From assembly GCA_020445765.1 (NCBI GenBank), contig JAGRFY010000060.1, positions 1,449 to 65,448 of the forward strand: 64,000 bases of DNA. The letters run 5' to 3'. Below, piece by piece: positions 1,626 through 51,033 of the stretch (position 1 is its first letter; every line of letters begins with the position of its first letter). The notes beneath the pieces are model-generated. The model searched no databases. It was not told the origin of the DNA and saw only the letters and a program-made list of their open reading frames with translations. Position numbers and translations under genes: made by a program. The stretch is from Rhodocyclaceae bacterium. GTDB taxonomy: Bacteria > Pseudomonadota > Gammaproteobacteria > Burkholderiales > Rhodocyclaceae.

Positions 1626-3121
1626 ATGGAAATGTTAGGCAAGGTGAGGAGGCTGTTCCTGCGGGATAGCCTGAGGGTTTCGGAAATTTCTCGGCGGACG
1701 GGCCTGTCGCGAAACACCATCAAGAAGTGGCTGAGGGAGGACGGTCCGGTTGAGCCGCGCTACCGGCGCGAGCCACATCCGGGCAAGCTCACGCCGCTTC
1801 ATTCCTACCTGCTGCAAGCACTCGAAGCGGATCGGGGCGGCCGAAACGCGAGCGCCGGACGGCGAAGGCGCTGCTGGTCGAGCTGAAATCGCAAGGCTAT
1901 GGCGGCGGCTATTCGATCCTGAACGACTTCATCCGCCGTTGGCGCGATCAGAAGTCGGCCAACGCGCCGACACGCGCCTTCGTGCCGCTGAAGTTCGAAC
2001 TGGGCGAAGCCTTCCAGTTCGACTGGAGCGAGGAACGGCTGGTGATCGGCGGCGTGTGGCGTCGGCTGATGGTCGCGCACTTGAAGCTGTGCGCAAGCCG
2101 CGCTTTCGTGCTGGTCGCCTATCCGAGCCAGGAGCACGAGATGCTGTTCGACGCCCATACCCGCAGCTTTGCGGCGCTGGGTGGCATCCCCCGGCGCGGC
2201 ATCTATGACAACATGAAGACCGCGGTCGACAAGGTCAGGAAGGGCAAGGGCCGCGTCGTCAATGCACGCTTCTCGGCGCTGTGCGCCCACTACCTGTTCG
2301 AGCCGGACTTCTGCAATGTCGCTTCGGGCTGGGAGAAAGGCGTCGTGGAGAAGAACGTCCAGGACAGTCGGCGGCGGATCTGGCTGGAAGCCGGCAAGCT
2401 GCGGTTCAGCAGCTTTGCCGAACTGAACGACTGGCTACTCCGACGCTGCCAGGCCCTGTGGCAGGAGTTGAAGCACCCCGAGTACGAGCTGACGATCGCG
2501 GAGATGCTCGAGCACGAACAGCCGCAGCTGATGCCGATGATCGCCCCGTTCGACGGCTACGTCGAAGAGACCGGGCGGGTCTCCAGCACCTGTCTGGTGA
2601 GCGCGGCCCGCAATCCTTACTCCGTGCCCTGCGAACTGGCAGGCCGGCTGATCAGCAAGCGCTTCTACCCCGAGCACATCGATGTCGTCTTCGACGATCG
2701 TTTGGTGGCGAGCCATGGGCGCCTGTTCGATCGCGGCCAGACGCGTTATGACTGGCTGCACTACCTGCCGCTGGTCGAGAGAAAGCCCGGCGTACTCAGA
2801 AACGGCGCGCCATTCGCCCAGATGCCCACGCCGTTCGTTCGCCTGCAGCGTCTGCTGTTGCGCCGAGATGGCGGCGACCGAGTGATGAGCCGGGTGCTGG
2901 CGATGATTCCGAAGGTCGGGCTCGATGCGGTACAGGTCGCCGTCGAACTGATGCTCGAATCGGGCCAGATCAGTGTCGAGCACGTGCTCAACGTGATCAA
3001 CCGGCTGCAGCAGGCGCCGACGCCGCAAAGTGTGGAGACTGCGCTGTCGATCAAGACTGCGCCGACAGCCGATACCGGGCGCTACGACCGGCTGCGCAGG
3101 AAGGAGACCGGCCATGCGTGA
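1626..3121 (+). pseudogene. istA: IS21 transposase IstA, frameshifted near 1832-1840
   Basis: The N-terminal HTH (SEISRRTGLSRNTIKKWL) is in one frame. The continuation RPKRERRTAKALL...AFQFDW...IYDNMKTAV...GWEKGVVE is in the -1 frame, with the junction at GATCGGGGCGGCCG. A sequencing error cannot be excluded. Confidence 0.85.
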
Positions 3122-3899
3122 TCTCGTCACCGAACTGAAGGCGCTGCGCCTATACGGCATGGCAACGGCCTGGGGAGAATGGGCGGCGCGGGACGAAGCC
3201 GACCTATCGCACAGCCGACAGTGCCTCGAACAGTTGCTCGAAGCGGAACGCACGGACCGTGCGATGCGTTCGGTCCGCTACCAGATGCACGCCGCGCGCT
3301 TCCCCGTGCACCGCGATCTGGCCGGATTCGACTTCGCCCAGTCGCCGGTGGAGCGCAAGCTGATCCTTGAACTGGCCGACTGCCACTTCACCGACGAGGT
3401 CCACAACGTCGTGTTCATCGGTGGGCCTGGCACGGGCAAGTCGCACCTGGCCACGGCGATTGGTGTCTCGGGCATCACCCGCCACGGCCGGCGCGTGCGC
3501 TTCCATTCCACGGTCGATCTGGTCAACGCGCTCGAACAGGAGAAGGCCGCGGGACGGGCCGGCAGGATGGCCCAGACGCTCAAGAACATCGATCTGCTGA
3601 TCCTGGACGAACTGGGCTACCTGCCGTTCAGTCAGGCCGGCGGCGCGCTGCTCTTCCATCTGCTCTCCAAGCTCTACGAACACACCAGCGTGATGATTAC
3701 GACCAACTTGACGTTCGGCGAATGGGCCAGCGTATTTGTCGATGCCAAGATGACCACGGCGCTGCTCGACCGCCTCACCCACCACTGTCACATCGTCGAG
3801 ACCGGGAACGACTCCTACCGCTTCCAGCACAGTACGGGAGTCGCCAAGGCGCGGATCCGTTCCCGCGAGAGCGCCCGGCACGAGCCCGTACCCGGGTAA
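3114..3899 (+). CDS. istB: IS21 helper ATPase IstB
   Basis: Walker [10 protein letters not shown], Walker [14 protein letters not shown] and LLDRLTHH motifs; overlaps the istA stop. Confidence 0.95.
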
Positions 3900-37336: not shown

Positions 37337-38065
37337 TCAGTCGCCCAGTTCGCGAAGTCCGGCGACGTCCGTCAGCGTGATCTCGCTGCCGTGCACGTTG
37401 ATCAGGCCGCGTTCGGTGAGATCGTGGAAGATCCGCGACAGGGTCTCCGGAACCAGATTGAGGCGGGACGCCAGCACGTGCTTGCTGACCGGCAGCGTCA
37501 CCGTGATCGGGTCCGCCGGCGGTCGGGTGCACGGCAGGGAGGCGCCCGGGCTGTGCGTGTCGCCGAGCGACATCAGATACGAGACCACCCGTTGGGCACC
37601 GCTGTTGAGCGAATAGGCCTCGACGTCGCGCACCATGCCGTGCAGCCGGATCGCCATGCCGGCGAGCAGGGAACGGGCGAAGTGGGGGTCTTCCTCGATC
37701 AACGTGAATACCACGCCACGGTCGATCAGCAGCAACTGGCTGTCGGCCAGCGCCTCGGCGAACACCGGATAGTTGCGATTCATGAACAGGACGGCCTCGC
37801 CGAAGCTCTGGCTCGGACCCAATACCTCGACCACCTTCTCGTTGCCCTGGCGCGACGCGAACGCGAGCTTTATCTGGCCGCGGATGACGTAGTAGAAGCC
37901 CTTCGGCGGGTCTCCCTGCTGGAACAGGATCTCGCCGCGGGCGAGGTCGCGTTCATGGGTGGCGCCGACCAGCATGCGAAGCTGTTCGTCGGTGATTTCG
38001 GTGAACAGTGGCAGGCGGCGCAATGCCTGCGCGATGTCGATATGTGGGACGGCGGCGTGGCTCAT
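37337..38065 (-). CDS. dnr: Crp/Fnr-family regulator, DNR type
   Basis: FGEAVLF cNMP-fold; HTH ETLSR; no N-terminal Fe-S Cys cluster; located next to the nir genes. Confidence 0.8.
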   Translation of the reverse strand: MSHAAVPHIDIAQALRRLPLFTEITDEQLRMLVGATHERDLARGEILFQQGDPPKGFYYVIRGQIKLAFASRQGNEKVVEVLGPSQSFGEAVLFMNRNYPVFAEALADSQLLLIDRGVVFTLIEEDPHFARSLLAGMAIRLHGMVRDVEAYSLNSGAQRVVSYLMSLGDTHSPGASLPCTRPPADPITVTLPVSKHVLASRLNLVPETLSRIFHDLTERGLINVHGSEITLTDVAGLRELGD

Positions 38066-39077: not shown

Positions 39078-39091
39078 TTGACTCTCGTCAA
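39078..39091. promoter_or_regulatory. FNR/DNR-type box between nirE and nirS
   Basis: TTGAC-TCTC-GTCAA. Confidence 0.8.
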
Positions 39092-41062: not shown

Positions 41063-41076
41063 TTGACGGCGATCAA
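41063..41076 (+). promoter_or_regulatory. FNR/DNR-type box upstream of nirC
   Basis: TTGAC-GGCG-ATCAA. Confidence 0.75.
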
Positions 41077-42676: not shown

Positions 42677-43720
42677 ATGGGTGTCGTGGCCGATCCGATC
42701 GTCGACATGCCTTCGGCCGGCCTCGTCGTCGCCCGCCACGACGATGGCCTCGACTGGCACCTGCTGAACGACTACCAGCGCGACTTCCCGCTGCAGGCCT
42801 GCCCCTATCTGCGCATCGCCCGAGCGCTCGGCTGCGATCAGGATCGGGTGCGCGAGCGGCTCGCATACCTGCAGTCGAGCGGCGCGATCAGCCGTGTCGG
42901 GCCGGTGTTTGCGCCGCGCCGCGTCGGCGCCAGCACGCTGGCGGCCTTGCGCGTACCGCCCCGGCATCTGCCCGAGGTCGCAGCCGTGGTCAGCGCCTCC
43001 GCTGCGGTCAATCACAACTACGCGCGCGAACATGCGTGGAACCTGTGGTTCGTCGCGACCGCCGCCGACCGCCTGGCGCTGGCCCGCAGCCTGCGCGAGA
43101 TCCGGCGGGCGACGGCGTGTCCGATGATCGAACTGCCGTTGCTCACCGAGTACCACATCGACCTGGGCTTCGATCTTGCGACTGGCGCCCGCGTGCGCAG
43201 CCAGGCGCGCGCCGTGCCGGTCGACATGCCGGCGCCGAGTGCGGTCGAACGGGCACTGATGGCGGCGATCGAGCGCGGCATTCCGCTCAGCGCTCGACCC
43301 TTCCGCAGCGTCGGCCGCCGCGCCGGCCTCGACGAGGCCGAGGTGATCCGCCGATTGCAGGGCTGGCTCGCCGACGGCACGCTGAAGCGTTTCGGCGTGG
43401 TCGTGCGCCACCATGAACTGGGCTGGCGCGCCAACGCGATGTGCGTCTGGGACGTGCCGGACGAGGAGGCCGATCACTTCGGTACGCGGCTCGCGACCTG
43501 CGACGGCGTCAACCTGTGCTACCGGCGCCGCCGTGCCGGCAGCCGCTGGCGCTTCAACCTGTACTGCATGCTGCACGGCCGCGACCGCGTCGAGGTTCGC
43601 GAGCGCCTGCGGATCATTGCTGGGCGCTGCGGGCTGGAGCGCTTCCCGCACGAGGTGCTGTTCTCGACCCAGCGCTTCAAGCAGCGCGGTGCATCCTATG
43701 CCGGCCACGGTCATGGCTGA
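42677..43720 (+). CDS. nirDL: Siroheme decarboxylase, fused NirD-NirL
   Basis: Two Lrp-like halves: YQRDFPL...VNHNYAREH and HHELGWRANAM...NLYCMLHG. Confidence 0.9.
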   Translation: MGVVADPIVDMPSAGLVVARHDDGLDWHLLNDYQRDFPLQACPYLRIARALGCDQDRVRERLAYLQSSGAISRVGPVFAPRRVGASTLAALRVPPRHLPEVAAVVSASAAVNHNYAREHAWNLWFVATAADRLALARSLREIRRATACPMIELPLLTEYHIDLGFDLATGARVRSQARAVPVDMPAPSAVERALMAAIERGIPLSARPFRSVGRRAGLDEAEVIRRLQGWLADGTLKRFGVVVRHHELGWRANAMCVWDVPDEEADHFGTRLATCDGVNLCYRRRRAGSRWRFNLYCMLHGRDRVEVRERLRIIAGRCGLERFPHEVLFSTQRFKQRGASYAGHGHG

Positions 43721-44744
43721 GCACGGGCAGGCGCGACTCGACGCGACCGATCGGCGGATCGTCGATGGCTTGCAGGGTGACTTCCCGCTGGTCTCGGAAC
43801 CCTATCGGCAGGCTGCCGCGCGGCTCGGCATCGCCGAGGACGAGTTGCTGGGCCGGCTCGATCGGCTGCTCGGCGCCCGCGTGCTGACCCGCTTCGGACC
43901 GATGTTCCAGGTCGAGCGCATGGGCGGCCGTTTCGTGCTGGCGGCGCTGGCCGCACCGGAGGCGCGCTTCGACGAGGTTGCCGAGAGCGTCAATCGCCTG
44001 CCCGAGGTCGCCCACAACTATCGGCGCGAGCACCGCCTCAACATGTGGTTCGTGCTGGCCACCGAGAGCGCCGACGGCATCGACGCGGCGATCCGCCGTA
44101 TCGAGGCCGATACCGGGCTGCCGGTGTATGCCTTCCCGAAGGAGCGGGAATATTTCGTCGACATGCGCCTTACGGTGCGCCAGGCGGCCGACCCGGAAGC
44201 GTCCGGTGCCGGCACCGTCACGGCGCCCGAGACGGCGCCGAGCCCGGCGACGGCCGTCCGCGGCAGCGCCGGCCCCTCGCTGACGCGCAGCGTCGTCGTC
44301 GCCACCCAGGCCGGCCTGCCGCTGGTTCGGCAGCCCTATCGCTTGATCGCCGACCAGCTCGGCTGCGACGAGGGTGCGGTCATCGGCTGCCTCGCCGCGA
44401 TGCTCGAAAGCGGTGCGATCCGCCGCATCGGCGCGGTTCCGAATCACTACGCGATCGGCTATGTCGCCAACGGCATGAGCGTCTGGGACGTGCCCGACGA
44501 CGCCGTCGATCGACTCGGCCAGGAGGTTGGTGCGCTGCCGTTCGTGACCCACTGCTATCGCCGGCCGCGGGCGCTGCCGGACTGGCCGTTCAACCTGTTC
44601 GCGATGGTGCACGGCGGTTGCCGAGACGAGGTGCTGGCCCGGGTCGCCGAGATCCGGGCGCATCTCCATCGCGCCTGTCGCCGCTACGACGTGCTGTTCT
44701 CGAGCCGCATCCTGAAGAAGACCGGCCTGCGCATCGGCGGCTGA
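43713..44744 (+). CDS. nirGH: Siroheme decarboxylase, fused NirG-NirH
   Basis: LQGDFPL...VAHNYRREH half, Ala/Pro linker, then PNHYAIGY...HCYRRP...NLFAMVHG half, in one ORF. Confidence 0.88.
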   Translation: MAEHGQARLDATDRRIVDGLQGDFPLVSEPYRQAAARLGIAEDELLGRLDRLLGARVLTRFGPMFQVERMGGRFVLAALAAPEARFDEVAESVNRLPEVAHNYRREHRLNMWFVLATESADGIDAAIRRIEADTGLPVYAFPKEREYFVDMRLTVRQAADPEASGAGTVTAPETAPSPATAVRGSAGPSLTRSVVVATQAGLPLVRQPYRLIADQLGCDEGAVIGCLAAMLESGAIRRIGAVPNHYAIGYVANGMSVWDVPDDAVDRLGQEVGALPFVTHCYRRPRALPDWPFNLFAMVHGGCRDEVLARVAEIRAHLHRACRRYDVLFSSRILKKTGLRIGG

Positions 44745-44762
44745 TCGGCCGCGAGCTGTCGC

Positions 44763-45950
44763 TCAGCCGGACGCCAGCGCGCGCACCACCAGCTGCATCA
44801 GTTCGTCCGGCTGCACCGCTTCGCCCAGCGCGCCGGCGCGGGTGGCCTCTTCGCGCCGGCGCGCTCGGTGTGTCGGCTGGAATTCGCCGTGATAGAAGAT
44901 CAGCGGCGTAGCGAAACCTTCCTCGCGCATCCGCCGCAGCAGTCGCAGGCCCTCGGCCTCGTCGGGCGATGCGCTCGGCACCCGCGACCAGTCGGAGATC
45001 ACCAGGTCGAAGGCATCGTCCGACGCATCGTCGCGGGCGGCGCGCAGCCTCGCCAGCGCCGATTCGGTATCCAGCGCCTGCACCACTTCGATCTGCAGAT
45101 GGGACAATGCGGCGGCCTCGAAGCGGTTGTTGGCAGGCGCGTCGTCCACCCACAGCACGCGCCGCTGCTGATGGACGTCGATCAGCGTCGCCGCCTGCTG
45201 ATCGAGCGCACCTGAATTGGCGATCTCCGTGCCGCGGGCCCGGGCCGCCTCCAGGATCTGGCCGTGGTAGCCGCTGACCACGCGTTGCAGCAGGGCGTCG
45301 CCATCGAATCGGGGCTCGGCCTCGGCCGGCGGCCGCACCAAATAGGCATTGCCGGCCATGTCGTCGCCTTCGCCATCACCTCGGTTCGCCACCGTCCGCG
45401 GCGGCAGTCCGTGGCCCTGCCGGTCGAAGGGATCGCTCGCCTTCGGCGTGGGCTGCGGCGGCGATGGGGTCGTCGCCGGCGGCTGTTCGTCGCTGGCCCG
45501 CTGTGCCTGGATTTGCTTGACCGCCCGCCGTACGCCCTTGGCGACGTCGGTCCAGGCTTCGTCACGGTTCGGCCAGGAGGTGACCGGACGCAGATCGGTG
45601 GGCAATCCCTGCAGGTGGGAGAACGGCGCGTCCTCGATGTCCACCGCGCGGATCAGGATCGGAATGACCTGGGCATCGCCGCTCGCCTGGCGCTCGAGTG
45701 CGACCTCGAGTTCGCGGCCCCAGATGTAGTCGGAGGCGATGAAGTCGGCGCTGACCAGCAGCAGCACGATGTCGGCCGACCGCAGATGCCGGTCGATCTC
45801 CCGGTTCCACTCGCTCGCCGGCGGGATGTCGCGGTCGTACCAGGCATCGATCACGCCCCGGCGCTGCAGGATGCCGAGGTGGCCCTGCAATTCGTCGCGC
45901 AGTGGCTCGTCTTCGTGGGCATAGCTGTAGAACAGGTTGAGCGGCGTCAT
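44763..45950 (-). CDS. TIR domain-receiver (REC) domain fusion protein
   Basis: LFYSYAHED...SADFIASDYIWGRELEVAL TIR; Pro-rich linker; VLWVDD...FDLVISD receiver. Confidence 0.85.
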   Translation of the reverse strand: MTPLNLFYSYAHEDEPLRDELQGHLGILQRRGVIDAWYDRDIPPASEWNREIDRHLRSADIVLLLVSADFIASDYIWGRELEVALERQASGDAQVIPILIRAVDIEDAPFSHLQGLPTDLRPVTSWPNRDEAWTDVAKGVRRAVKQIQAQRASDEQPPATTPSPPQPTPKASDPFDRQGHGLPPRTVANRGDGEGDDMAGNAYLVRPPAEAEPRFDGDALLQRVVSGYHGQILEAARARGTEIANSGALDQQAATLIDVHQQRRVLWVDDAPANNRFEAAALSHLQIEVVQALDTESALARLRAARDDASDDAFDLVISDWSRVPSASPDEAEGLRLLRRMREEGFATPLIFYHGEFQPTHRARRREEATRAGALGEAVQPDELMQLVVRALASG

Positions 45951-46031
45951 CGGCGTTCCGTGGTTCGCATTCCTTCCAAATCTAGTCGCCATTGTTGCCG
46001 CTGTCTCGCGAGGGCTGCCGTCGGCCAGTGC

Positions 46032-46045
46032 TTGACGGCCGTCAA
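46032..46045 (+). promoter_or_regulatory. FNR/DNR-type box upstream of nirJ
   Basis: Perfect palindrome TTGAC-GGCC-GTCAA, about 58 bp before the nirJ start. Confidence 0.8.
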
Positions 46046-46102
46046 GGAGCCGTTCGCGAACGGTGCCGACAATGGCTCGGACGTTGCCGCCAGGAGGTTG
46101 AA

Positions 46103-47323
46103 GTGTTCCGGATTTCTCGTTACGTCAGGATGCTGCTGGGTCCCGCGCCGGCCCCGGAGCGGCGGCCGGCCGCGCCGTCGGGCCGTGGTCCGGTGGTCAT
46201 CTGGAACCTGATCCGGCGCTGCAACCTGACCTGCCGGCACTGCTATTCGATCAGCGCCGACAAGGATTTCGCCGGTGAGCTGGACACCGCCGAGGTCGCC
46301 CAGGTGATGGACGATCTGGCGGCATTCGGCGTGCCGGTGTTGATCCTGTCCGGCGGCGAGCCGCTGCTGCGTCCCGACATCTTCGAGATTGCCGGGCGCG
46401 CCAAGCGGATGGGCTTCTATGTCGGCCTGTCCTCCAACGGCACGCTGATCGACGCGCCGATGGCCGAACGGATCGGCAAACTGGATCTCGACTACGTCGG
46501 CATCAGCCTCGACGGCCTGCGTGCCACCCATGACCGATTCCGCCGCATGGACGGCGCCTTCGACAAGTCGCTGGCCGGCTTGCGGCTGGCGCGCGAGCTC
46601 GGCCTCAAGGTAGGCCTGCGCTTCACGCTGACCCGGGACAACGCGACCGACCTGCCGGCGCTGCTGCAACTGGTCGAGGACGAACAGGTCGACCGTTTCT
46701 ATCTGTCGCACCTGAATTACGCCGGCCGCGGCAACAAGAACCGCGCCGAAGACGCCCATCACCGGATGACCCGGGAGGCCATGACCCTGCTGTTCGATCG
46801 GGTGCTGGCGATGGAGTCGCAGGGGGTGCGCAAGGATTTCACGACCGGCAACAACGATGCCGACGGCGTGTTTTTCCTGCATTGGGTGGCGCGCCGGATG
46901 CCTGACCGGCTCGGGCAGGCGCGACGCATGCTCGAGCGCTGGGGCGGCAATGCCAGCGGCGTCGGCGTTGCCAACATCGACAACCTCGGCAATGTCCATC
47001 CCGACACCATGTGGTGGCATCACACTCTCGGCAACGTCCGTGAACGGCCGTTTTCGGCGATCTGGCAGGACCGCAGCCAAGGGCTGATGGCGGGGCTCGC
47101 CCAGCGGCCACGCCCGGTCACCGGCCGCTGCGGTGACTGTGCGTATCTCGCGATCTGCAACGGCAGCTCGCGGGTGCGGGCCGAACAGGTTACCGGCGAC
47201 CCTTGGCAGGAGGATCCGGGCTGCTATCTCGACGATGCGGAAATCGGCATCGCCGACGGCCGGGCGCGGGTCGCGGTCACGCCGTGGCGGCGCGTGGTGC
47301 CGGTCAGGGCGGTGCAGCCGTGA
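46103..47323 (+). CDS. nirJ: Heme d1 biosynthesis radical SAM protein NirJ
   Basis: AGGAGG RBS with GTG start (MFRISRY); CNLTCRHC radical SAM motif; SPASM Cys residues. Confidence 0.95.
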   Translation: MFRISRYVRMLLGPAPAPERRPAAPSGRGPVVIWNLIRRCNLTCRHCYSISADKDFAGELDTAEVAQVMDDLAAFGVPVLILSGGEPLLRPDIFEIAGRAKRMGFYVGLSSNGTLIDAPMAERIGKLDLDYVGISLDGLRATHDRFRRMDGAFDKSLAGLRLARELGLKVGLRFTLTRDNATDLPALLQLVEDEQVDRFYLSHLNYAGRGNKNRAEDAHHRMTREAMTLLFDRVLAMESQGVRKDFTTGNNDADGVFFLHWVARRMPDRLGQARRMLERWGGNASGVGVANIDNLGNVHPDTMWWHHTLGNVRERPFSAIWQDRSQGLMAGLAQRPRPVTGRCGDCAYLAICNGSSRVRAEQVTGDPWQEDPGCYLDDAEIGIADGRARVAVTPWRRVVPVRAVQP

Positions 47324-48861
47324 GGGCGCTGCTGCTTGCAGGGGTGCTGGCACTGGCAGCGTTGCCGGTCGCCGCTGCCGACGCCGAAGCCCTCTACCAG
47401 TCCCATTGCGCCGCCTGCCACGGCAGCGATCGCGTCGGCGGCAGCGGGCCCGCCCTGCTGCCCGAGAACCTGGCACGGCTGAAACGCGCCGATGCCGCCG
47501 CGACCATCCGCGCCGGGCGCGCGGCGACCCGGATGCCGGCCTTCGGCGAGGTGCTGTCCGCGGCCGACGTCGACGCCCTGGCGAACTGGATCTACACGCC
47601 GGTGGATCCGCCGCCGCGCTGGCGCGAATTGGACATCCGCGCATCGCGGATCGAGTACCGCGCGCCGGGCAGCCTGCCGGCAAAGCCGGTATTCGACGCC
47701 GATCCGATGAACCTGTTCATCGTGGTCGAGAGTGGGGATCACCACATCAGCATCCTCGACGGCGACCGCATGGCGCGCATCCACCGCTTTCCGTCGCGTT
47801 TCGCGCTGCACGGCGGGCCGAAGTTCTCGCCGGACGGCCGCTTCGTCTATTTCGCATCGCGCGACGGCTGGATCACCAAGTACGATCTCTGGAACCTCGA
47901 GACCGTGGCCGAGGTGCGCGCCGGCATCAATACCCGCAACGCCGCGGTGTCGGCCGACGGGCGCTTCGTCGCGGTCGCCAACTACCTGCCGCAGACGCTG
48001 GTGCTGCTCGACGCCGAACTCAGGTTGGTCAAGCTCTTCGACGTCGCCGACCGAGCCGGCACGCTGGGCTCGCGGGTATCGGCGGTGTATGACGCGTCGC
48101 CGCGCAAGTCCTTCGTCGCAGCGCTGAAGGATCTGCCCGAAATCTGGGAAATCTCGTACGACGAAAATGCCGAGCCGATCCACGAGGGCTATGTGCACGA
48201 CTACAAGATGGGCGAGAGCATCGCGACACCGGGCTATCTCAATGTGCGCCGCACGCGGCTCGACACGCCCCTCGACGACTTCTACTTCAGCCAGAACTAC
48301 GCCAACGTGATGGGTGCGTCGCGCGACGGCCATGGCCGGGTGGTGAATCTCGATGTGCGCCGGTCGATCGCCGAACTCGACATACCGGGCATGCCGCACC
48401 TGGGTTCCGGCATCACCTGGGATTACCAGGGCCGCCGCGTGATGGGCAGTCCGAACCTGAAGGAGGGGGTCGTCAGCATCATCGACATGAGCGACTGGCG
48501 CACGATCAAGCGCATCCCGACCCTCGGTCCCGGCTTCTTTATGCGCAGCCACGAGAACGTTCGCTACGCCTTCGTCGATTCGATGATGAGCCCGACCGGC
48601 CGCGATACCCTGCAGGTGATCGACAAGCAGAGCCTGGAGGTGGTCGCGCGGCTGCGGCCCGAACCGGGCAAGACGCTGGCCCACGTCGAGTTCGACCGCG
48701 ACGGCCGCTATCTGATCGCCAGCCTGTGGGAACAGGACGGCGCCCTGATCTTCTTCGATGCCGACACGCTGAAGGAGATCAAGCGGCTGCCGGCATCGAA
48801 ACCGGTCGGCAAGTACAACCTCTACAACAAGATCCACAAGTCGGAAGGGACCAGCCACTGA
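47320..48861 (+). CDS. nirN: Cytochrome c/d1-domain protein NirN
   Basis: HCAACHG; FALHGGPKFS; GMPHLGSGI; GKYNLYNKIHKSEGTSH. Confidence 0.93.
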   Translation: MRALLLAGVLALAALPVAAADAEALYQSHCAACHGSDRVGGSGPALLPENLARLKRADAAATIRAGRAATRMPAFGEVLSAADVDALANWIYTPVDPPPRWRELDIRASRIEYRAPGSLPAKPVFDADPMNLFIVVESGDHHISILDGDRMARIHRFPSRFALHGGPKFSPDGRFVYFASRDGWITKYDLWNLETVAEVRAGINTRNAAVSADGRFVAVANYLPQTLVLLDAELRLVKLFDVADRAGTLGSRVSAVYDASPRKSFVAALKDLPEIWEISYDENAEPIHEGYVHDYKMGESIATPGYLNVRRTRLDTPLDDFYFSQNYANVMGASRDGHGRVVNLDVRRSIAELDIPGMPHLGSGITWDYQGRRVMGSPNLKEGVVSIIDMSDWRTIKRIPTLGPGFFMRSHENVRYAFVDSMMSPTGRDTLQVIDKQSLEVVARLRPEPGKTLAHVEFDRDGRYLIASLWEQDGALIFFDADTLKEIKRLPASKPVGKYNLYNKIHKSEGTSH

Positions 48862-48885: not shown

Positions 48886-49308
48886 CTACTGCGGTGGAAC
48901 GTCGATGCCGTGGGCGGTCAGCCAGTTCCGGTCCAGTTCCCAGCGTACCGATGCGATGCCGGGCTGCGCCTCGACGATGCTGCGCGCCTCGGACTGGGCG
49001 GCCGCGAGCCGGGCCTGGGCCGCGATGAAGGCCGGATTCTGCGGATCCCGGACGTCGATCCCCGGCTCGATCGCCGCGATGAAGTGCATCGCCGGCACAT
49101 CGAAATTGCGAGGTGTGGCCATCACCGCGACGTCGCCCTCGACCCGCAGCACGTGGAAGCGGTACGGATAGTCCTTCAGCGCATCGCTGGCGGTCTGCTC
49201 GATCACCGAATCGAGCGCACGCGAGCGCGCGTCGGGGCGCTGGATGAACCAGTCTGCGGCGAAGGCCAGAAGCACCACCAGCGCGATCCACTGCCAGCGC
49301 TTGTTCAC
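48886..49308 (-). CDS. Hypothetical membrane-anchored protein
   Basis: GGAGG RBS with GTG start; N-terminal hydrophobic helix; YPYRFHVLRV...PRNFDVP globular part. Confidence 0.7.
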   Translation of the reverse strand: MNKRWQWIALVVLLAFAADWFIQRPDARSRALDSVIEQTASDALKDYPYRFHVLRVEGDVAVMATPRNFDVPAMHFIAAIEPGIDVRDPQNPAFIAAQARLAAAQSEARSIVEAQPGIASVRWELDRNWLTAHGIDVPPQ

Positions 49309-49514
49309 GGATCTCGAACCTCCAGTCGGGGCGTCCGCATCGACCATCGCTCACGCCGGACGGGCGCACGCCGACGCGATGACAGGATGCTGGCCCAAGG
49401 TTAGCAGGGATCGCGGCGATCGGTGTTGCCGGTGCCATGATTCAGAAAATGTGTAGTCTTATCAGATGCGTGCAAACGGTTCGGAATCCCGGTCGGCGCC
49501 TTGCCGACCCCCAC

Positions 49515-49612: not shown

Positions 49613-50371
49613 ATGTCGACAAAAGACGGTTTCATCATCGATCCATTGCTCGCGCGCATTCCCTTGCTCGCCGGGCTGAGCCATCCCGCCCGACGGGCGG
49701 TCGCGGCGCACGCGCAGCGGCGCGAGGTGGACCGCGGCGCGGCACTGTACCGGGAGGGCGACCCGGCGCACGCCTTTCACTTCCTCGCAGCCGGCAAGAT
49801 CAAGCGGGTCGTGTGCTCTGCCGAGGGCTCGGAAAGAGTCATCGATCTCGTGCTGCCAGGCGATACCATCGGCTTGTGCGAAGTGTTTTCCTCGAGCGGT
49901 TTCGCCTGCCGCGCGGAAGCGCTCGAGCCATCGACCGTGGTCGAGATCAGCCATGCCGCGATCGACCATGCGATGGATCTCGACCCCCGGCTGCCGCGCC
50001 GAATCATCTCGGCGATCGCCGATCGCAACACCGGTCTGGTCCGCGACATTGCCGCTTCGCACTTCCATTCGGCCTGTCGCCGTGTGCTCGACTATCTGCG
50101 CCATCTCGCGGATTCGGTCGCCGAGATCGACGACGGGGCCTCGCCGAGCTTCGTGCTGCCGGTGCGGAAGCATCTTCTCGCGGCGCAGCTCGGCCTCAGC
50201 CCGGAGACCCTTTCCCGGGTCTTTCGCGACCTTTCCGAAGTGGGTCTGATCTCCGTGACCGGGCCGCGCATCACCTTGTCGCCCGATGTCGACAAGCACG
50301 CGTCGACGATCGCCGAATCGCGCCGCCGGGTCCTCGCCGAAGCGCGTTCCGCGAGCCGGTCCTGCCGCTGA
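49613..50371 (+). CDS. Second Crp/Fnr-family regulator (DNR-like)
   Basis: IPLLAGLS, GLCEVF and HTH LSPETLSRVFRDL; no Fe-S Cys cluster. Confidence 0.88.
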   Translation: MSTKDGFIIDPLLARIPLLAGLSHPARRAVAAHAQRREVDRGAALYREGDPAHAFHFLAAGKIKRVVCSAEGSERVIDLVLPGDTIGLCEVFSSSGFACRAEALEPSTVVEISHAAIDHAMDLDPRLPRRIISAIADRNTGLVRDIAASHFHSACRRVLDYLRHLADSVAEIDDGASPSFVLPVRKHLLAAQLGLSPETLSRVFRDLSEVGLISVTGPRITLSPDVDKHASTIAESRRRVLAEARSASRSCR

Positions 50372-50376
50372 CCGGC

Positions 50377-51033
50377 TCACGACTGCGTGATCGGCACCTT
50401 GCCGCCGCGCCGCGCCCAGAGTGCAATTTCGACCCGCGAGCGATAGCCGATCTTGCGTTTCATGTTGCGCAGGTGCACCTTCACCGTGCCCTCGCTGATG
50501 TCCAGCGTGCGGGCAATCAGCTTGTTCGGCATGCCGGTGCCGACCAGTGCCAGCACCTGCCGTTCCCGGTCGGTCAGCGCGGCGCAGGGCGGCTGTGTGC
50601 CGGCCGCCTGCCGCGAATCGCTCGCCAGCAACCGGCGGGCATGGGCGCCGCCGTCCGTTGCAGACAGCACGTGCCGCACCGCGGCGAGCAGGTCGCCGGC
50701 GTGCATGTCCTTGGTCAGATACTCGACGGCACCGGCCTCGAGCGCGCGGGCGACATCGCGCGGACTCGTCGAACTCGTCAATACGACGATCGGCGCCGCC
50801 CCGAGCCGGCTTCGCAGCCGATCCACCGTGGCGTAGTCGTCGAAGCCACCGAGCTGCGGGTCGACGATGATCAGGTCGGGACGCAGGCGAAGGGCGAACT
50901 CGATGCACTCGTCCGCGCTCTGCGCTTCCGCGACGACGTCGATATCGTGCTGTCGATCGAACCAGTCGACCAGTCCCCGGCGAAACAGGGGATGATCGTC
51001 TGCGACCAGGATGCGGTGCTTGCCGGCGGTCAT
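50377..51033 (-). CDS. NarL/LuxR-family response regulator
   Basis: ILVADDHPLFRRG receiver; LTDRERQVL...NKLIARTLDISEGTVKVH HTH. Confidence 0.92.
   Translation of the reverse strand: MTAGKHRILVADDHPLFRRGLVDWFDRQHDIDVVAEAQSADECIEFALRLRPDLIIVDPQLGGFDDYATVDRLRSRLGAAPIVVLTSSTSPRDVARALEAGAVEYLTKDMHAGDLLAAVRHVLSATDGGAHARRLLASDSRQAAGTQPPCAALTDRERQVLALVGTGMPNKLIARTLDISEGTVKVHLRNMKRKIGYRSRVEIALWARRGGKVPITQS

What the first reader, a model, noticed from the sequence alone, without database searches (positions are those of the whole stretch)
44763..45950. TIR-receiver fusion inserted antisense into the heme d1 operon, with nirJN given its own promoter
Seen: a TIR domain that keeps the Glu at the NADase catalytic position (SDYIWGRE), a Pro-rich linker, and a receiver with DD and the phosphoacceptor Asp but no obvious conserved Lys (EAVQPDEL). 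It lies on the opposite strand between nirGH and nirJ, and a perfect TTGAC-GGCC-GTCAA box sits between its start and nirJ. Known: nirH and nirJ are normally contiguous, and bacterial TIRs are NAD+-cleaving or signal-producing enzymes. Inference: this is either a defence gene captured in the operon or a phosphorylation-gated TIR co-regulated with denitrification through the shared divergent box. The second case would be an undescribed link between NO respiration and NAD signalling.
Basis: partly seen in the sequence, partly recalled or inferred. Interest (0 to 1): 0.75.

Follow-up and report, generated by a model that had tools for sequence, protein, structure and literature searches.

The report
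Orphan TIR–receiver gene lodged in nir cluster
A real, well-conserved gene for an NAD-cleaving-type TIR domain fused to an unusual receiver domain sits backwards between two heme d1 genes, but it looks like a passenger from the bacterial defence/conflict gene pool, and the palindrome next to it is the ordinary anaerobic activator site of nirJ.

Summary
44763-45950 (-) encodes a 395-aa protein: a TIR domain (Pfam 3e-16; PADLOC ThsB-like 1e-52), a disordered Pro-rich linker, and a CheY-fold receiver. The catalytic Glu80 is invariant in 121/121 relatives. The receiver keeps DD and the acceptor Asp but has Tyr-His in place of Thr/Ser, and no relative has the Lys. The gene lies between nirGH and nirJ, and TTGACGGCCGTCAA is at 46032-46045.

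The family is widespread (Thauera, Nitrospira, Burkholderiales, Acidobacteriota) and always lacks a neighbouring kinase. It usually stands alone, often beside CHAT/caspase, patatin or other TIR genes. Only one small Rhodocyclaceae clade from activated sludge carries it in the nir cluster. There it has co-diverged with nirJ (dS 0.51 vs 0.52) under purifying selection.

The palindrome belongs to nirJ. Its spacing to a conserved GACAAT fits a class II FNR/Dnr promoter. The same kind of box at the same distance precedes nirJ in about 40 relatives without the TIR gene. No other TIR-REC locus has such a box.

So "captured conflict gene" is favoured, and a link between NO respiration and NAD signalling is not supported. 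The atypical receiver subfamily, also found fused to a TM helix or to CHAT, is the more interesting lead.

The parts
44763..45950 (-). TIR-REC gene (395 aa plus stop codon TGA at 44763-44765)
   Evidence: ORF, start and stop. 771 homologues. Purifying selection.
45486..45950 (-). TIR domain (aa 1-155). The catalytic Glu80 codon is 45711-45713.
   Evidence: Pfam TIR_2 3e-16 and PADLOC ThsB1 1e-52. Glu80 aligns with the AbTir and Cat1 catalytic Glu. It is invariant in 121/121 relatives.
45309..45485 (-). Pro-rich disordered linker (aa 156-214)
   Evidence: pLDDT below 50. dN/dS is 0.6-0.95. There is a 24-aa deletion in L001/P0002 and a variant that skips 149 nt in two DNA runs.
44766..45308 (-). 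Atypical receiver (CheY-fold) domain with a two-helix N-terminal extension (aa 215-395). Key residues: D269-D270 (45141-45146), D320 (44991-44993), Y353-H354 (44889-44894), Q380-P381 (44808-44813).
   Evidence: Foldseek against CheY and PmrA gives TM 0.78-0.86. Residue statistics over 121 sequences. Coordinates checked.
46032..46045 (.). FNR/Dnr-type palindrome TTGACGGCCGTCAA, read as the activator site of the nirJ promoter
   Evidence: Three such sites in the window against 0.1 expected. Conserved in L001, L044 and L002; L003 has the variant TTGACCGCCATCAA. A similar box 56-73 nt before nirJ occurs in relatives without TIR-REC.
46068..46073 (+). Candidate -10 element GACAAT of nirJ, 22 nt after the box. 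The predicted transcription start is about 46080, which puts the box centre at about -41.5.
   Evidence: Sequence and spacing are conserved in L001, L044 and L002; L003 has GAGAAT at the same spacing. The transcription start is inferred, not measured.
45979..46007 (-). Candidate own sigma-70-type promoter of the TIR-REC gene: GAGACA (46007-46002), 17 nt, TAGATT (45984-45979). It matches 8 of 12 positions.
   Evidence: Read directly from the sequence. TAGATT and GACA are conserved in L044 and L002. The site is below the threshold of the scanner. Inference only.
43713..44744 (+). nirGH (fused siroheme decarboxylase subunits), convergent with TIR-REC. The two stop codons are 18 nt apart and no terminator lies between them.
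   Evidence: Pfam and NCBIfam AhbA/AhbB. No terminator-like site. The fold is no more stable than shuffled sequences.
46103..47323 (+). nirJ (radical SAM, heme d1 biosynthesis), followed by nirN (about 47320-48861)
   Evidence: TIGR04051 614.8 bits against a cut-off of 515. Cytochrome_D1 and cytochrome c domains for nirN.
39078..39091 (.). Second FNR/Dnr-type box (TTGACTCTCGTCAA) in front of nirS
41063..41076 (.). Third FNR/Dnr-type box (TTGACGGCGATCAA) in front of nirC-nirF-nirDL-nirGH

Best explanation
The gene encodes a member of a widespread, uncharacterised family of stand-alone TIR-receiver proteins that belongs to the prokaryotic defence/conflict gene pool.

Shown here:
- The TIR domain is of the bacterial NAD+-cleaving type and its catalytic Glu is invariant.
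- The C-terminal domain has a true CheY fold of an atypical subfamily. It keeps the metal-binding Asp pair and the acceptor Asp. It carries an invariant Tyr-His where Thr/Ser should be and an invariant Arg at D+3, and it never has the Lys.
- The same receiver subfamily is also found fused to a single TM helix, to CHAT proteases, to two TIRs and to TIR+CHAT. No histidine kinase is ever next to it.
- In one Rhodocyclaceae lineage from activated sludge, the gene sits between nirGH and nirJ. There it has co-diverged with nirJ under purifying selection.
- The palindrome is conserved with nirJ, at class II spacing to a conserved -10-like element.

Inferred:
- The receiver-fold domain is the on/off switch. 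A phosphoryl group, metal or small ligand at the acidic pocket would drive dimerisation. That would bring TIR domains together, which TIR enzymes need for activity, and NAD+ would then be cleaved or turned into a signal, as in abortive-infection-type systems.
- The gene landed in a junction that was already a boundary between transcription units, or readily became one.
- The gene is transcribed from its own weak sigma-70-like promoter and is not part of the denitrification regulon.
For: Domains and residues.

Family breadth and contexts: there are 771 homologues and 80 genome loci. Only L001, L002/L034, L003 and L044 (63-94% identical) have nir genes nearby.

Neighbours of 47 non-redundant loci:
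- No kinase family appears among the recurrent neighbours.
- Seven loci have a giant DUF7379-lipase-CHAT-TPR-S protein directly downstream on the same strand.
- Other loci have patatin, caspase or DUF4062.
- In Thauera the neighbours are housekeeping genes.

Receiver subfamily: 1574 hits. Of 120 representatives, 23 carry TIR, 4 CHAT and 1 a hydrolase, and most are TM-REC proteins of about 220 aa. TIR-REC-CHAT fusions exist. TM-REC genes are stand-alone, next to a recombinase, a PIN-MazE pair or a transposase.

Inheritance: dS is 0.51 for TIR-REC and 0.52 for nirJ against L002. dN/dS is 0.21 for TIR, 0.35 for REC and 0.95 for the linker. GC3 is 0.856, like the neighbours.

The box belongs to nirJ.
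Against: - No biochemical or expression data exist. No RNA run holds the locus.
- No match was found in phages, and there is no full-length match on plasmids, so mobility is only inferred from the patchy distribution.
- The family is in no curated defence system. PADLOC matches only the TIR part, and there is no NCBIfam model.
- In Thauera the gene sits among housekeeping genes, which says nothing for defence.
- Retention inside the nir cluster over dS 0.5-0.9 with purifying selection is also what a locally useful, co-opted gene would show.
- With Thr and Lys missing, a classical phospho-switch is doubtful, so the activation step is a guess.
Confidence: 0.6

Rival explanations
1. A phosphorylation-gated TIR enzyme has been recruited into the denitrification regulon. 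Dnr/FNR bound at the shared palindrome would activate both nirJ and the TIR-REC gene divergently, linking NO respiration to NAD+ turnover or signalling.
For: The box centre is 88.5 nt from the TIR-REC start codon. This spacing is conserved in L001, L044 and L002. The gene is kept under purifying selection inside the nir cluster in at least four diverged strains. The Asp triad of the receiver is intact. Two Crp/FNR regulators flank the cluster.
Against: - The box lies 22 nt before a conserved GACAAT on the nirJ side, which is class II geometry.
- On the TIR side the best -10 (TAGATT) puts the box near -66.5, which fits neither class I nor class II.
- In L003 two other genes separate TIR-REC from the box.
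- 41 of 43 nirJ relatives without TIR-REC and without nirGH upstream have such a box, in 37 of them 56-73 nt before the nirJ start.
- None of 45 non-nir TIR-REC loci has a box.
- Convergent read-through from nirC-H, with no terminator, would oppose expression under denitrifying conditions rather than help it.
- Lys and Thr are absent and no kinase is nearby.
Confidence: 0.1
2. Thoeris-like arrangement. The TIR-REC protein would be a ThsB-type signal producer (a cyclic ADPR isomer), and its effector (ThsA-like SIR2/SLOG or another protein) would be encoded elsewhere in the genome.
For: The best family match is PADLOC ThsB1 PDLC00420 (1e-52). In L003 the gene two places upstream has a weak SIR2_2 match (1.9e-4, below threshold). 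In seven loci a large CHAT/lipase protein and a second TIR protein follow directly, which suggests multi-gene systems.
Against: There is no SIR2, SLOG or Macro gene in the 64-kb window. None appears among the immediate neighbours of 47 loci. The L003 neighbour has no PADLOC match. PDLC00420 corresponds to 317-320-aa TIR proteins with a different C-terminal domain, and only the TIR half matches.
Confidence: 0.15
3. The receiver-like domain is not a switch but an enzyme of the 'cRec' kind proposed by Iyer, Aravind and colleagues. Its catalytic aspartates would process a phosphoester of the TIR product, such as cyclic ADPR or a 2',3'-cyclic phosphate.
For: PMC7824862 describes divergent Rec domains that keep the aspartates, are never found with histidine kinases, and are linked to NAD+/ADPR-processing enzymes. 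The domain here keeps the Asp triad, lacks Lys and Thr, is never next to a kinase, and is fused to a TIR.
Against: No cRec sequence could be obtained for comparison, because no supplement is held. There was no match in phages, where cRec was described. Most members of this receiver subfamily are fused to a TM helix or to CHAT, not to NAD+ enzymes. That fits a switch better than a product-processing enzyme.
Confidence: 0.1
4. Decaying passenger: an inactive remnant with no present function.
For: The position is odd, antisense inside a biosynthetic cluster. The receiver scores below the Pfam threshold.
Against: The ORF is intact in all five nir-embedded loci. dN/dS is 0.21-0.35 in both domains but about 0.6-0.95 in the linker. 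All catalytic and pocket residues are kept.
Confidence: 0.03

Closest known systems
Bacterial TIR-domain NADases and signal producers (AbTir, Thoeris ThsB, Cat1, TIR-STING, TIR-SAVED effectors)
   Same: The TIR fold is shared. The catalytic Glu sits in the W-x-x-x-E-type position and aligns with AbTir and Cat1. There is a strong match to a ThsB-type profile. The layout of an N-terminal TIR with a C-terminal regulatory domain resembles TIR-STING and TIR-SAVED. The same regulatory domain also occurs with a TM helix or a protease in place of TIR, which is the effector-swapping pattern of those systems.
   Different: The regulatory domain is a receiver-fold domain, not STING, SAVED, SLOG or APAZ. 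No signal-generating enzyme, ThsA, Argonaute or CRISPR partner is linked. No member has been tested.
Canonical two-component response regulators (CheY, PmrA receiver domains)
   Same: The (beta-alpha)5 fold is shared, with TM 0.78-0.86. Also shared are the DD pair after beta1, the acceptor Asp in the motif VISDW (as in CheY), and the conserved Pro after beta5.
   Different: There is no Thr/Ser at the end of beta4 (invariant Tyr-His instead). There is no Lys before the Pro (M/T/S/R/Q/G in 121 sequences). An invariant Arg sits at D+3. No cognate kinase is adjacent in 47 TIR-REC loci or 3 TM-REC loci. The output domain is a TIR, at the N-terminus.
Kinase-independent receiver domains of conflict systems, and the 'cRec' domain (Kaur et al. 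2020/2021, PMC7159879 and PMC8195603; Iyer et al. 2021, PMC7824862)
   Same: These are receiver domains that occur without histidine kinases, among effectors such as TIR and caspase-like peptidases. The authors predict them to be nucleotide-responsive switches or phosphoesterases that retain the aspartates.
   Different: Those papers do not describe this TIR-REC architecture in the passages I could read. Sequence-level identity with cRec could not be tested. The association here is with CHAT/TPR-S proteins, not with vWA-MoxR or RNA-repair genes.
Pseudomonas-type heme d1 operon nirSMCFDLGHJEN under Dnr control
   Same: The genes are the same: nirS, nirC, nirF, nirDL, nirGH, nirJ, nirN, with nirE upstream on the opposite strand. 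FNR/Dnr-type boxes are present, and Crp/FNR regulators flank the cluster.
   Different: The cluster is split into at least three box-headed units (nirS; nirC-H; nirJN). It carries a foreign antisense gene between nirGH and nirJ.

Membership tests
TIR domain, enzymatic (NAD+-cleaving) class | TIR fold or profile match | tested here: met
   Pfam TIR_2 3e-16 (60.5 bits against 28). PADLOC ThsB1 1e-52. PDB profile hits to Cat1, AbTir and PdTIR. The model has pLDDT of about 85 over aa 1-155.
TIR domain, enzymatic (NAD+-cleaving) class | Catalytic glutamate at the conserved position | tested here: met
   Glu80 aligns with the Glu of AbTir (DWTNYE) and of Cat1. It is invariant in 121/121 family members.
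TIR domain, enzymatic (NAD+-cleaving) class | NAD+ hydrolase or cyclase activity | not testable with these tools
   This needs a biochemical assay.
Thoeris (ThsA + ThsB) | ThsB-type TIR protein | tested here: met
   PDLC00420 1e-52, but only profile positions 3-167 of 319 match. Pfam ThsB_TIR does not match the window protein.
Thoeris (ThsA + ThsB) | Adjacent ThsA (SIR2 or Macro/TM with SLOG) | tested here: not met
   The neighbours are nirGH and nirJ. There is no SIR2 or SLOG in the window or among the immediate neighbours of 47 loci. The only hint is a sub-threshold SIR2_2 match in L003 with no PADLOC match.
Canonical response-regulator receiver domain | CheY-like fold | tested here: met
   Foldseek against CheY, PmrA and RssB gives TM 0.73-0.86.
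Canonical response-regulator receiver domain | Acidic pocket (DD) and phospho-acceptor Asp | tested here: met
   D269 is present in 121/121 and D320 in 120/121. D270 is D, or N in a few members.
Canonical response-regulator receiver domain | Conserved Thr/Ser at the end of beta4 and Lys at the end of beta5 | tested here: not met
   Tyr353-His354 are invariant at the end of beta4. The position before Pro381 is M/T/S/R/Q/G and never K in 121 sequences.
Canonical response-regulator receiver domain | Pfam gathering score | tested here: not met
   The window protein scores 21.4 bits against a 30.2 cut-off. Many relatives do carry a precomputed PF00072 hit.
Canonical response-regulator receiver domain | Cognate histidine kinase | tested here: not met
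   No kinase family appears among the recurrent immediate neighbours of 47 loci. None is next to three TM-REC genes. The only kinase in the window is about 23 kb away. A distant partner cannot be excluded.
cRec (cyclic-phosphate-processing Rec; PMC7824862) | Divergent Rec that retains the aspartates, is never found with kinases, and is linked to NAD+/ADPR enzymes | tested here: inconclusive
   The qualitative features are shared. No cRec sequence was available for comparison, and no phage homologue was found.
Class II FNR/Dnr-dependent promoter (of nirJ) | TTGAT-N4-ATCAA-type palindrome centred about 41.5 nt before the transcription start | tested here: inconclusive
   The palindrome is present and statistically unexpected. 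A conserved GACAAT lies 22 nt downstream, which implies a centre near -41.5. The transcription start itself was not measured, and no RNA data exist.
Heme d1 biosynthesis cluster | NirJ, NirDL/NirGH siroheme decarboxylase, NirF, NirN, NirS | tested here: met
   TIGR04051 is above its cut-off. AhbA/AhbB-type decarboxylase domains and Cytochrome_D1 domains are present.

The most novel reading that the evidence does not exclude
The atypical receiver-fold domain (WVDD...SDxxR...PxxxY...GAxGxxxxPxEL, no Lys) would be a previously unrecognised signal-receiving module of bacterial immunity. It would be used like STING, SAVED or SLOG. A phosphoryl donor or small ligand made during infection or stress would bind its acidic pocket and oligomerise whichever effector is attached: a TM helix, TIR, CHAT or a hydrolase. 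TIR-REC would be its NAD+-depleting version.
Probability: 0.3. Interest if true: 0.75.

Novelty: new variant of a known kind. Interest (0 to 1): 0.42.

Why it matters
For denitrification it matters little. The nir cluster of this sludge bacterium carries a passenger gene, and the separate Dnr box of nirJ is a common arrangement among relatives.

For bacterial immunity and TIR biology it is a useful lead. Here is a large, strongly conserved, untested family in which a catalytically competent-looking TIR is fused to a receiver-fold domain. That domain has lost two of the five canonical receiver residues and never has a kinase beside it. The same receiver subfamily is attached to membrane-spanning, protease and hydrolase modules. 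If the receiver fold is the trigger, this would add a new type of control to TIR NADases. It would also give a simple two-domain protein in which that control could be studied.

Tried and rejected
1. Expression evidence. No RNA run holds the TIR-REC gene or the nirS-nirH stretch, so co-regulation could not be tested directly.

2. Population variants in four activated-sludge DNA runs. The contigs are short and mixed with those of related organisms. A joint that skips exactly the TIR-REC gene (44744 to 46190) has only 24 nt on one side. I therefore did not count it as evidence for an insertion-free allele.

3. Phages and plasmids. There was no phage match. On plasmids only the TIR half matches, in 317-320-aa proteins with another C-terminal domain. 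Mobility of the whole gene is therefore not shown.

4. The generic promoter and terminator scanner found nothing in 44600-46200. The proposed promoters come from reading the alignment, not from the scanner.

5. cRec comparison. No supplement is held.

6. Literature searches for TIR-receiver fusions gave only general conflict-system papers.

7. My nirN coordinates in the dN/dS script were out of frame. Those three lines are meaningless and are not used.

8. Search for a partner gene in the window. No SIR2/SLOG, CHAT or nearby kinase was found.

9. Recent horizontal transfer judged from base composition is rejected. GC3 is 0.856, like the neighbours.
Full report
**What is at the coordinates.**

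The minus-strand ORF runs 44763-45992. The ATG at 45950 is the real start. The upstream ATG at 45992 is not conserved in the 70%-identical orthologue L002, and gene callers gave 395 aa for the 99%-identical P0001.

The 395-aa product has three parts.

- *TIR domain, aa 1-155.* Pfam TIR_2 scores 3e-16 and the PADLOC ThsB-type profile PDLC00420 scores 1e-52.
- *Pro-rich linker, aa 156-214.* AlphaFold leaves it disordered, with pLDDT below 50. It differs in length between strains: there is a 24-aa deletion in L001, and a variant that skips 149 nt appears in two sludge metagenomes.
- *C-terminal domain, aa 215-395.* It scores only 21.4 bits against Pfam Response_reg, below the 30.2 cut-off. The model nevertheless superposes on CheY, PmrA and RssB receivers with TM 0.73-0.86.

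- SDYIWGRE ends in Glu80. A family profile aligns this residue with the catalytic Glu of AbTir and of Cat1.
- WVDD is D269-D270.
- VISDW holds D320.
- EAVQPDEL has Gln380 where receivers have the Lys that precedes a conserved Pro.

**How conserved the residues are.**

I aligned 121 full-length relatives.

| Position | Result |
|---|---|
| Glu80 | 121/121 |
| D269 | 121/121 |
| D320 | 120/121 |
| Tyr353, His354 (end of beta4, where receivers have Thr/Ser) | 121/121 each |
| Pro381 | 121/121 |
| Residue before Pro381 (Lys position) | M, T, S, R, Q or G; never K |

An Arg three residues after the acceptor Asp (R323) is also invariant.

The receiver is therefore a defined atypical subfamily, not a decayed copy. 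It keeps the metal and phosphoryl pocket but lacks two of the five canonical residues.

**Where the family occurs.**

The protein search returned 771 homologues. Full-length relatives at about 50% identity occur in Thauera, Nitrospira/Nitrospirales and many metagenomes. A scan of 185,579 species genomes added Methylibium, Rhizobacter, other Burkholderiales, Thiotrichaceae, Acidobacteriota, Terrimicrobiaceae and Kofleriaceae.

I searched all 90 loci fetched at that point with the window's nir proteins. Only the close clade has nir genes within 8 kb:

- L001: 93% identical, a sludge read-set assembly.
- L002 = L034: 70%, Rhodocyclaceae MAG HKST-UBA163.
- L044: 94%, partial, HKST-UBA165.
- L003: 63%.

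In all of these the gene lies between nirGH (or nirH) and nirJ, on the opposite strand. In L003 the gap holds four genes: a 278-aa protein with a sub-threshold SIR2_2 match, a 189-aa protein, TIR-REC, and a cyclophilin-like protein.

Elsewhere the neighbours differ:

- Thauera: peroxiredoxin, M48 peptidase and def-fmt.
- Nitrospira: CHAT-TPR-S, a caspase and a pYEATS-TIR protein.
- Nitrospirales: patatin and DUF4062.

**Neighbour census.**

I took 47 non-redundant full-length loci and scanned the immediate neighbours against Pfam.

- The commonest neighbour is Peptidase_M48 (7 loci, all Thauera, which reflects vertical synteny).
- Equally common is one giant protein of about 1825 aa carrying DUF7379, an LCAT/PGAP1 lipase, CHAT and TPR-S (7 loci). 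It occurs in Thiotrichaceae, Rhizobacter and other Burkholderiales. It lies directly downstream on the same strand. In three loci a 615-aa TIR-TPR protein follows it.
- No histidine-kinase family is among the recurrent neighbours.

This is the signature of an orphan gene that moves among variable, conflict-type neighbourhoods.

**The receiver module on its own.**

Searching aa 215-395 against 1.84 billion cluster representatives gave 1574 hits at E ≤ 0.001.

Of 120 representatives scanned with Pfam:

- 110 match Response_reg.
- 23 carry TIR.
- 4 carry CHAT.
- 1 carries WD40.
- 1 carries a DUF900 hydrolase.

Most are proteins of about 220 aa with a single N-terminal hydrophobic helix followed by the receiver. 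Of 60 inspected, 48 have this helix.

There are also TIR-REC-CHAT triple fusions (P0139, P0149) and a TIR-TIR-REC protein (P0144).

Three TM-REC genes on long contigs are again stand-alone. None has a kinase beside it. Their neighbours are a recombinase, a PIN-MazE pair, or DUF4407 and a transposase.

One regulatory domain with interchangeable TM, TIR, protease and hydrolase partners is the pattern seen for STING-, SAVED- and SLOG-linked effectors. That comparison rests on established knowledge of CBASS and Thoeris.

It also agrees with remarks from the Aravind group. They note receiver domains that occur without kinases among conflict-system effectors (PMC7159879, PMC8195603). They also describe a "cRec" domain that keeps the aspartates and is linked to NAD+/ADPR enzymes (PMC7824862). 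I could not test identity with cRec, because no sequences were available.

**History in the nir cluster.**

| Comparison | Region | dS | dN/dS |
|---|---|---|---|
| Window vs L002 | TIR-REC, whole gene | 0.51 | – |
| Window vs L002 | nirJ | 0.52 | – |
| Window vs L002 | TIR domain | – | 0.21 |
| Window vs L002 | Receiver | – | 0.35 |
| Window vs L002 | Linker | – | 0.95 |

Values against L003 are similar. GC3 is 0.856, the same as the neighbours.

The insertion therefore predates the split of these strains. It has been inherited with the cluster, and both domains are under purifying selection. It is not a recent arrival and not a pseudogene.

**The palindrome.**

TTGAYN4RTCAA occurs three times in the window against 0.1 expected. 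The sites are at 39078 before nirS, 41063 before nirC, and 46032 before nirJ.

In the intergenic alignment, the box and a GACAAT 22 nt downstream of it are conserved in L001, L044 and L002. L003 has TTGACCGCCATCAA followed by 22 nt and GAGAAT, right next to nirJ, even though its divergent neighbour there is a different gene.

A -10 element at 46068-46073 implies a start near 46080. That puts the box centre near -41.5, which is the class II FNR/CRP geometry (established knowledge). The start site itself is inferred.

On the other strand the best -10-like hexamer is TAGATT (45984-45979), with GAGACA 17 nt upstream. This gives a start near 45972 and places the box near -66.5, which is not a standard activating position. 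This too is inference.

**nirJ in relatives.**

I fetched 80 metagenomic nirJ loci at 64-74% identity. Of these, 71 have upstream sequence.

| Arrangement upstream of nirJ | Loci | FNR/Dnr-type box |
|---|---|---|
| nirGH directly upstream (gap < 325 nt) | 25 | Absent, with one exception |
| Unrelated upstream genes (e.g. NERD-UvrD helicase, PLD, hybrid kinase, pseudouridine synthase, ABC transporter) | 43 | Present in 41; in 37 of them 56-73 nt before the nirJ start (window: 71 nt) |
| nirGH 1.1-3.1 kb upstream, with another insert between | 3 | Present |

None of these loci has TIR-REC.

Conversely, among the 47 TIR-REC loci, only the nir-embedded L001 and L034 have such a box within 300 nt of the gene's start. 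About 0.14 would be expected by chance.

The box is thus a property of nirJ. A box-headed nirJN unit is common among relatives. The TIR-REC gene most likely settled in a junction that already was, or easily becomes, a boundary between transcription units.

**Other points on regulation.**

The stop codons of nirGH and TIR-REC are 18 nt apart. No terminator-like element lies between them, and the region folds no better than shuffled sequence. Transcription of nirC-H under denitrifying conditions would therefore run antisense into TIR-REC. If anything this argues against co-induction. This is inference.

No RNA data exist for the organism in the runs served. The DNA runs that hold the sequence are activated-sludge and wastewater metagenomes.

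**Partners in the window.**

A Pfam pass over the other GC3-filtered ORFs of the window found an IS21-type element, metabolic genes and one hybrid kinase about 23 kb away. It found no SIR2/SLOG, CHAT or other TIR. The TIR-REC protein has no NCBIfam model.

**Conclusion.**

The gene is a real TIR-receiver fusion, as described.

The mechanism I consider most likely is that the receiver-fold domain acts as a switch. Occupancy of its acidic pocket by a phosphoryl group, a metal or a ligand would drive self-association and so activate the TIR NADase. That part is inference from domain logic and from the effector-swapping pattern. It has about even odds within the favoured explanation.

The proposed link between NO respiration and NAD signalling is not excluded. 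But it has no positive support beyond proximity, and several observations speak against it.

Noticed in passing
P0121-P0269; loci L173, L176, L178: A large family of proteins of about 220-230 aa has one N-terminal TM helix and the same atypical receiver. It is widespread, for example in cyanobacteria (Microcystis, Microcoleus, Phormidesmis). In three contexts it stands alone without a neighbouring kinase.
   Followed up: partly
P0139 (715 aa), P0149 (602 aa), P0144 (521 aa): TIR-REC-CHAT triple fusions and a TIR-TIR-REC protein exist. They tie this receiver subfamily to caspase-like proteases.
   Followed up: partly
L042 7911-16512 (also L043, L060): An apparent three-gene unit lies on one strand: TIR-REC, then an 1825-aa DUF7379-LCAT/PGAP1 lipase-CHAT-TPR-S protein, then a 615-aa TIR-TPR protein.
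   Followed up: partly
L003 6252-9372: In this relative the nirH-nirJ gap holds four genes: a 278-aa protein with a sub-threshold SIR2_2 match, a 189-aa protein, TIR-REC and a cyclophilin-like protein. nirG and nirH are separate genes there but are fused in the window.
   Followed up: partly
window 48886-49347 (-): A 153-aa ORF between nirN and the Crp/FNR regulator is conserved at 76-100% in L001 and L002/L034. It has no Pfam or NCBIfam match.
   Followed up: no
window 37337-38065 (-), 49613-50371 (+), 50377-51033 (-): Two Crp/FNR-family regulators flank the nir cluster. A NarL/LuxR-type response regulator with a canonical receiver sits next to the second one, with no kinase beside it. The arrangement is conserved in L001 and L002.
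   Followed up: no
window 2069-3896 (+): An IS21-type pair: a Mu-transposase C-terminal domain protein followed by an IstB-like ATPase.
   Followed up: no
window 44744-46190: Contigs in three sludge DNA runs join 44744 to 46190, skipping exactly the TIR-REC gene. Only 24 nt lie on one side of the joint. This may come from a related organism with contiguous nirH-nirJ.
   Followed up: no
window 45307-45457; L001 6001-7116: The linker varies in length within the population. A diverged strain has a variant that skips 149 nt, and L001 has a 24-aa deletion, while the flanking genes are 99-100% identical.
   Followed up: partly
L091 4995-5948 (P. aeruginosa plasmid pPUV-6); L092 4995-5957 (Nitrosococcus oceani plasmid A): Plasmid-borne proteins of 317-320 aa share the TIR module at 46-54% identity but have a different, unannotated C-terminal domain. 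They sit beside methylases and an AbiEii-type gene. They probably correspond to the PADLOC PDLC00420 profile.
   Followed up: partly
L002 816-1928 (-); L010 10240-11562 (+): DUF4062 proteins recur near TIR-REC genes. One lies 6 kb away in the nir-embedded L002. Another lies directly downstream in Nitrospirales loci.
   Followed up: no
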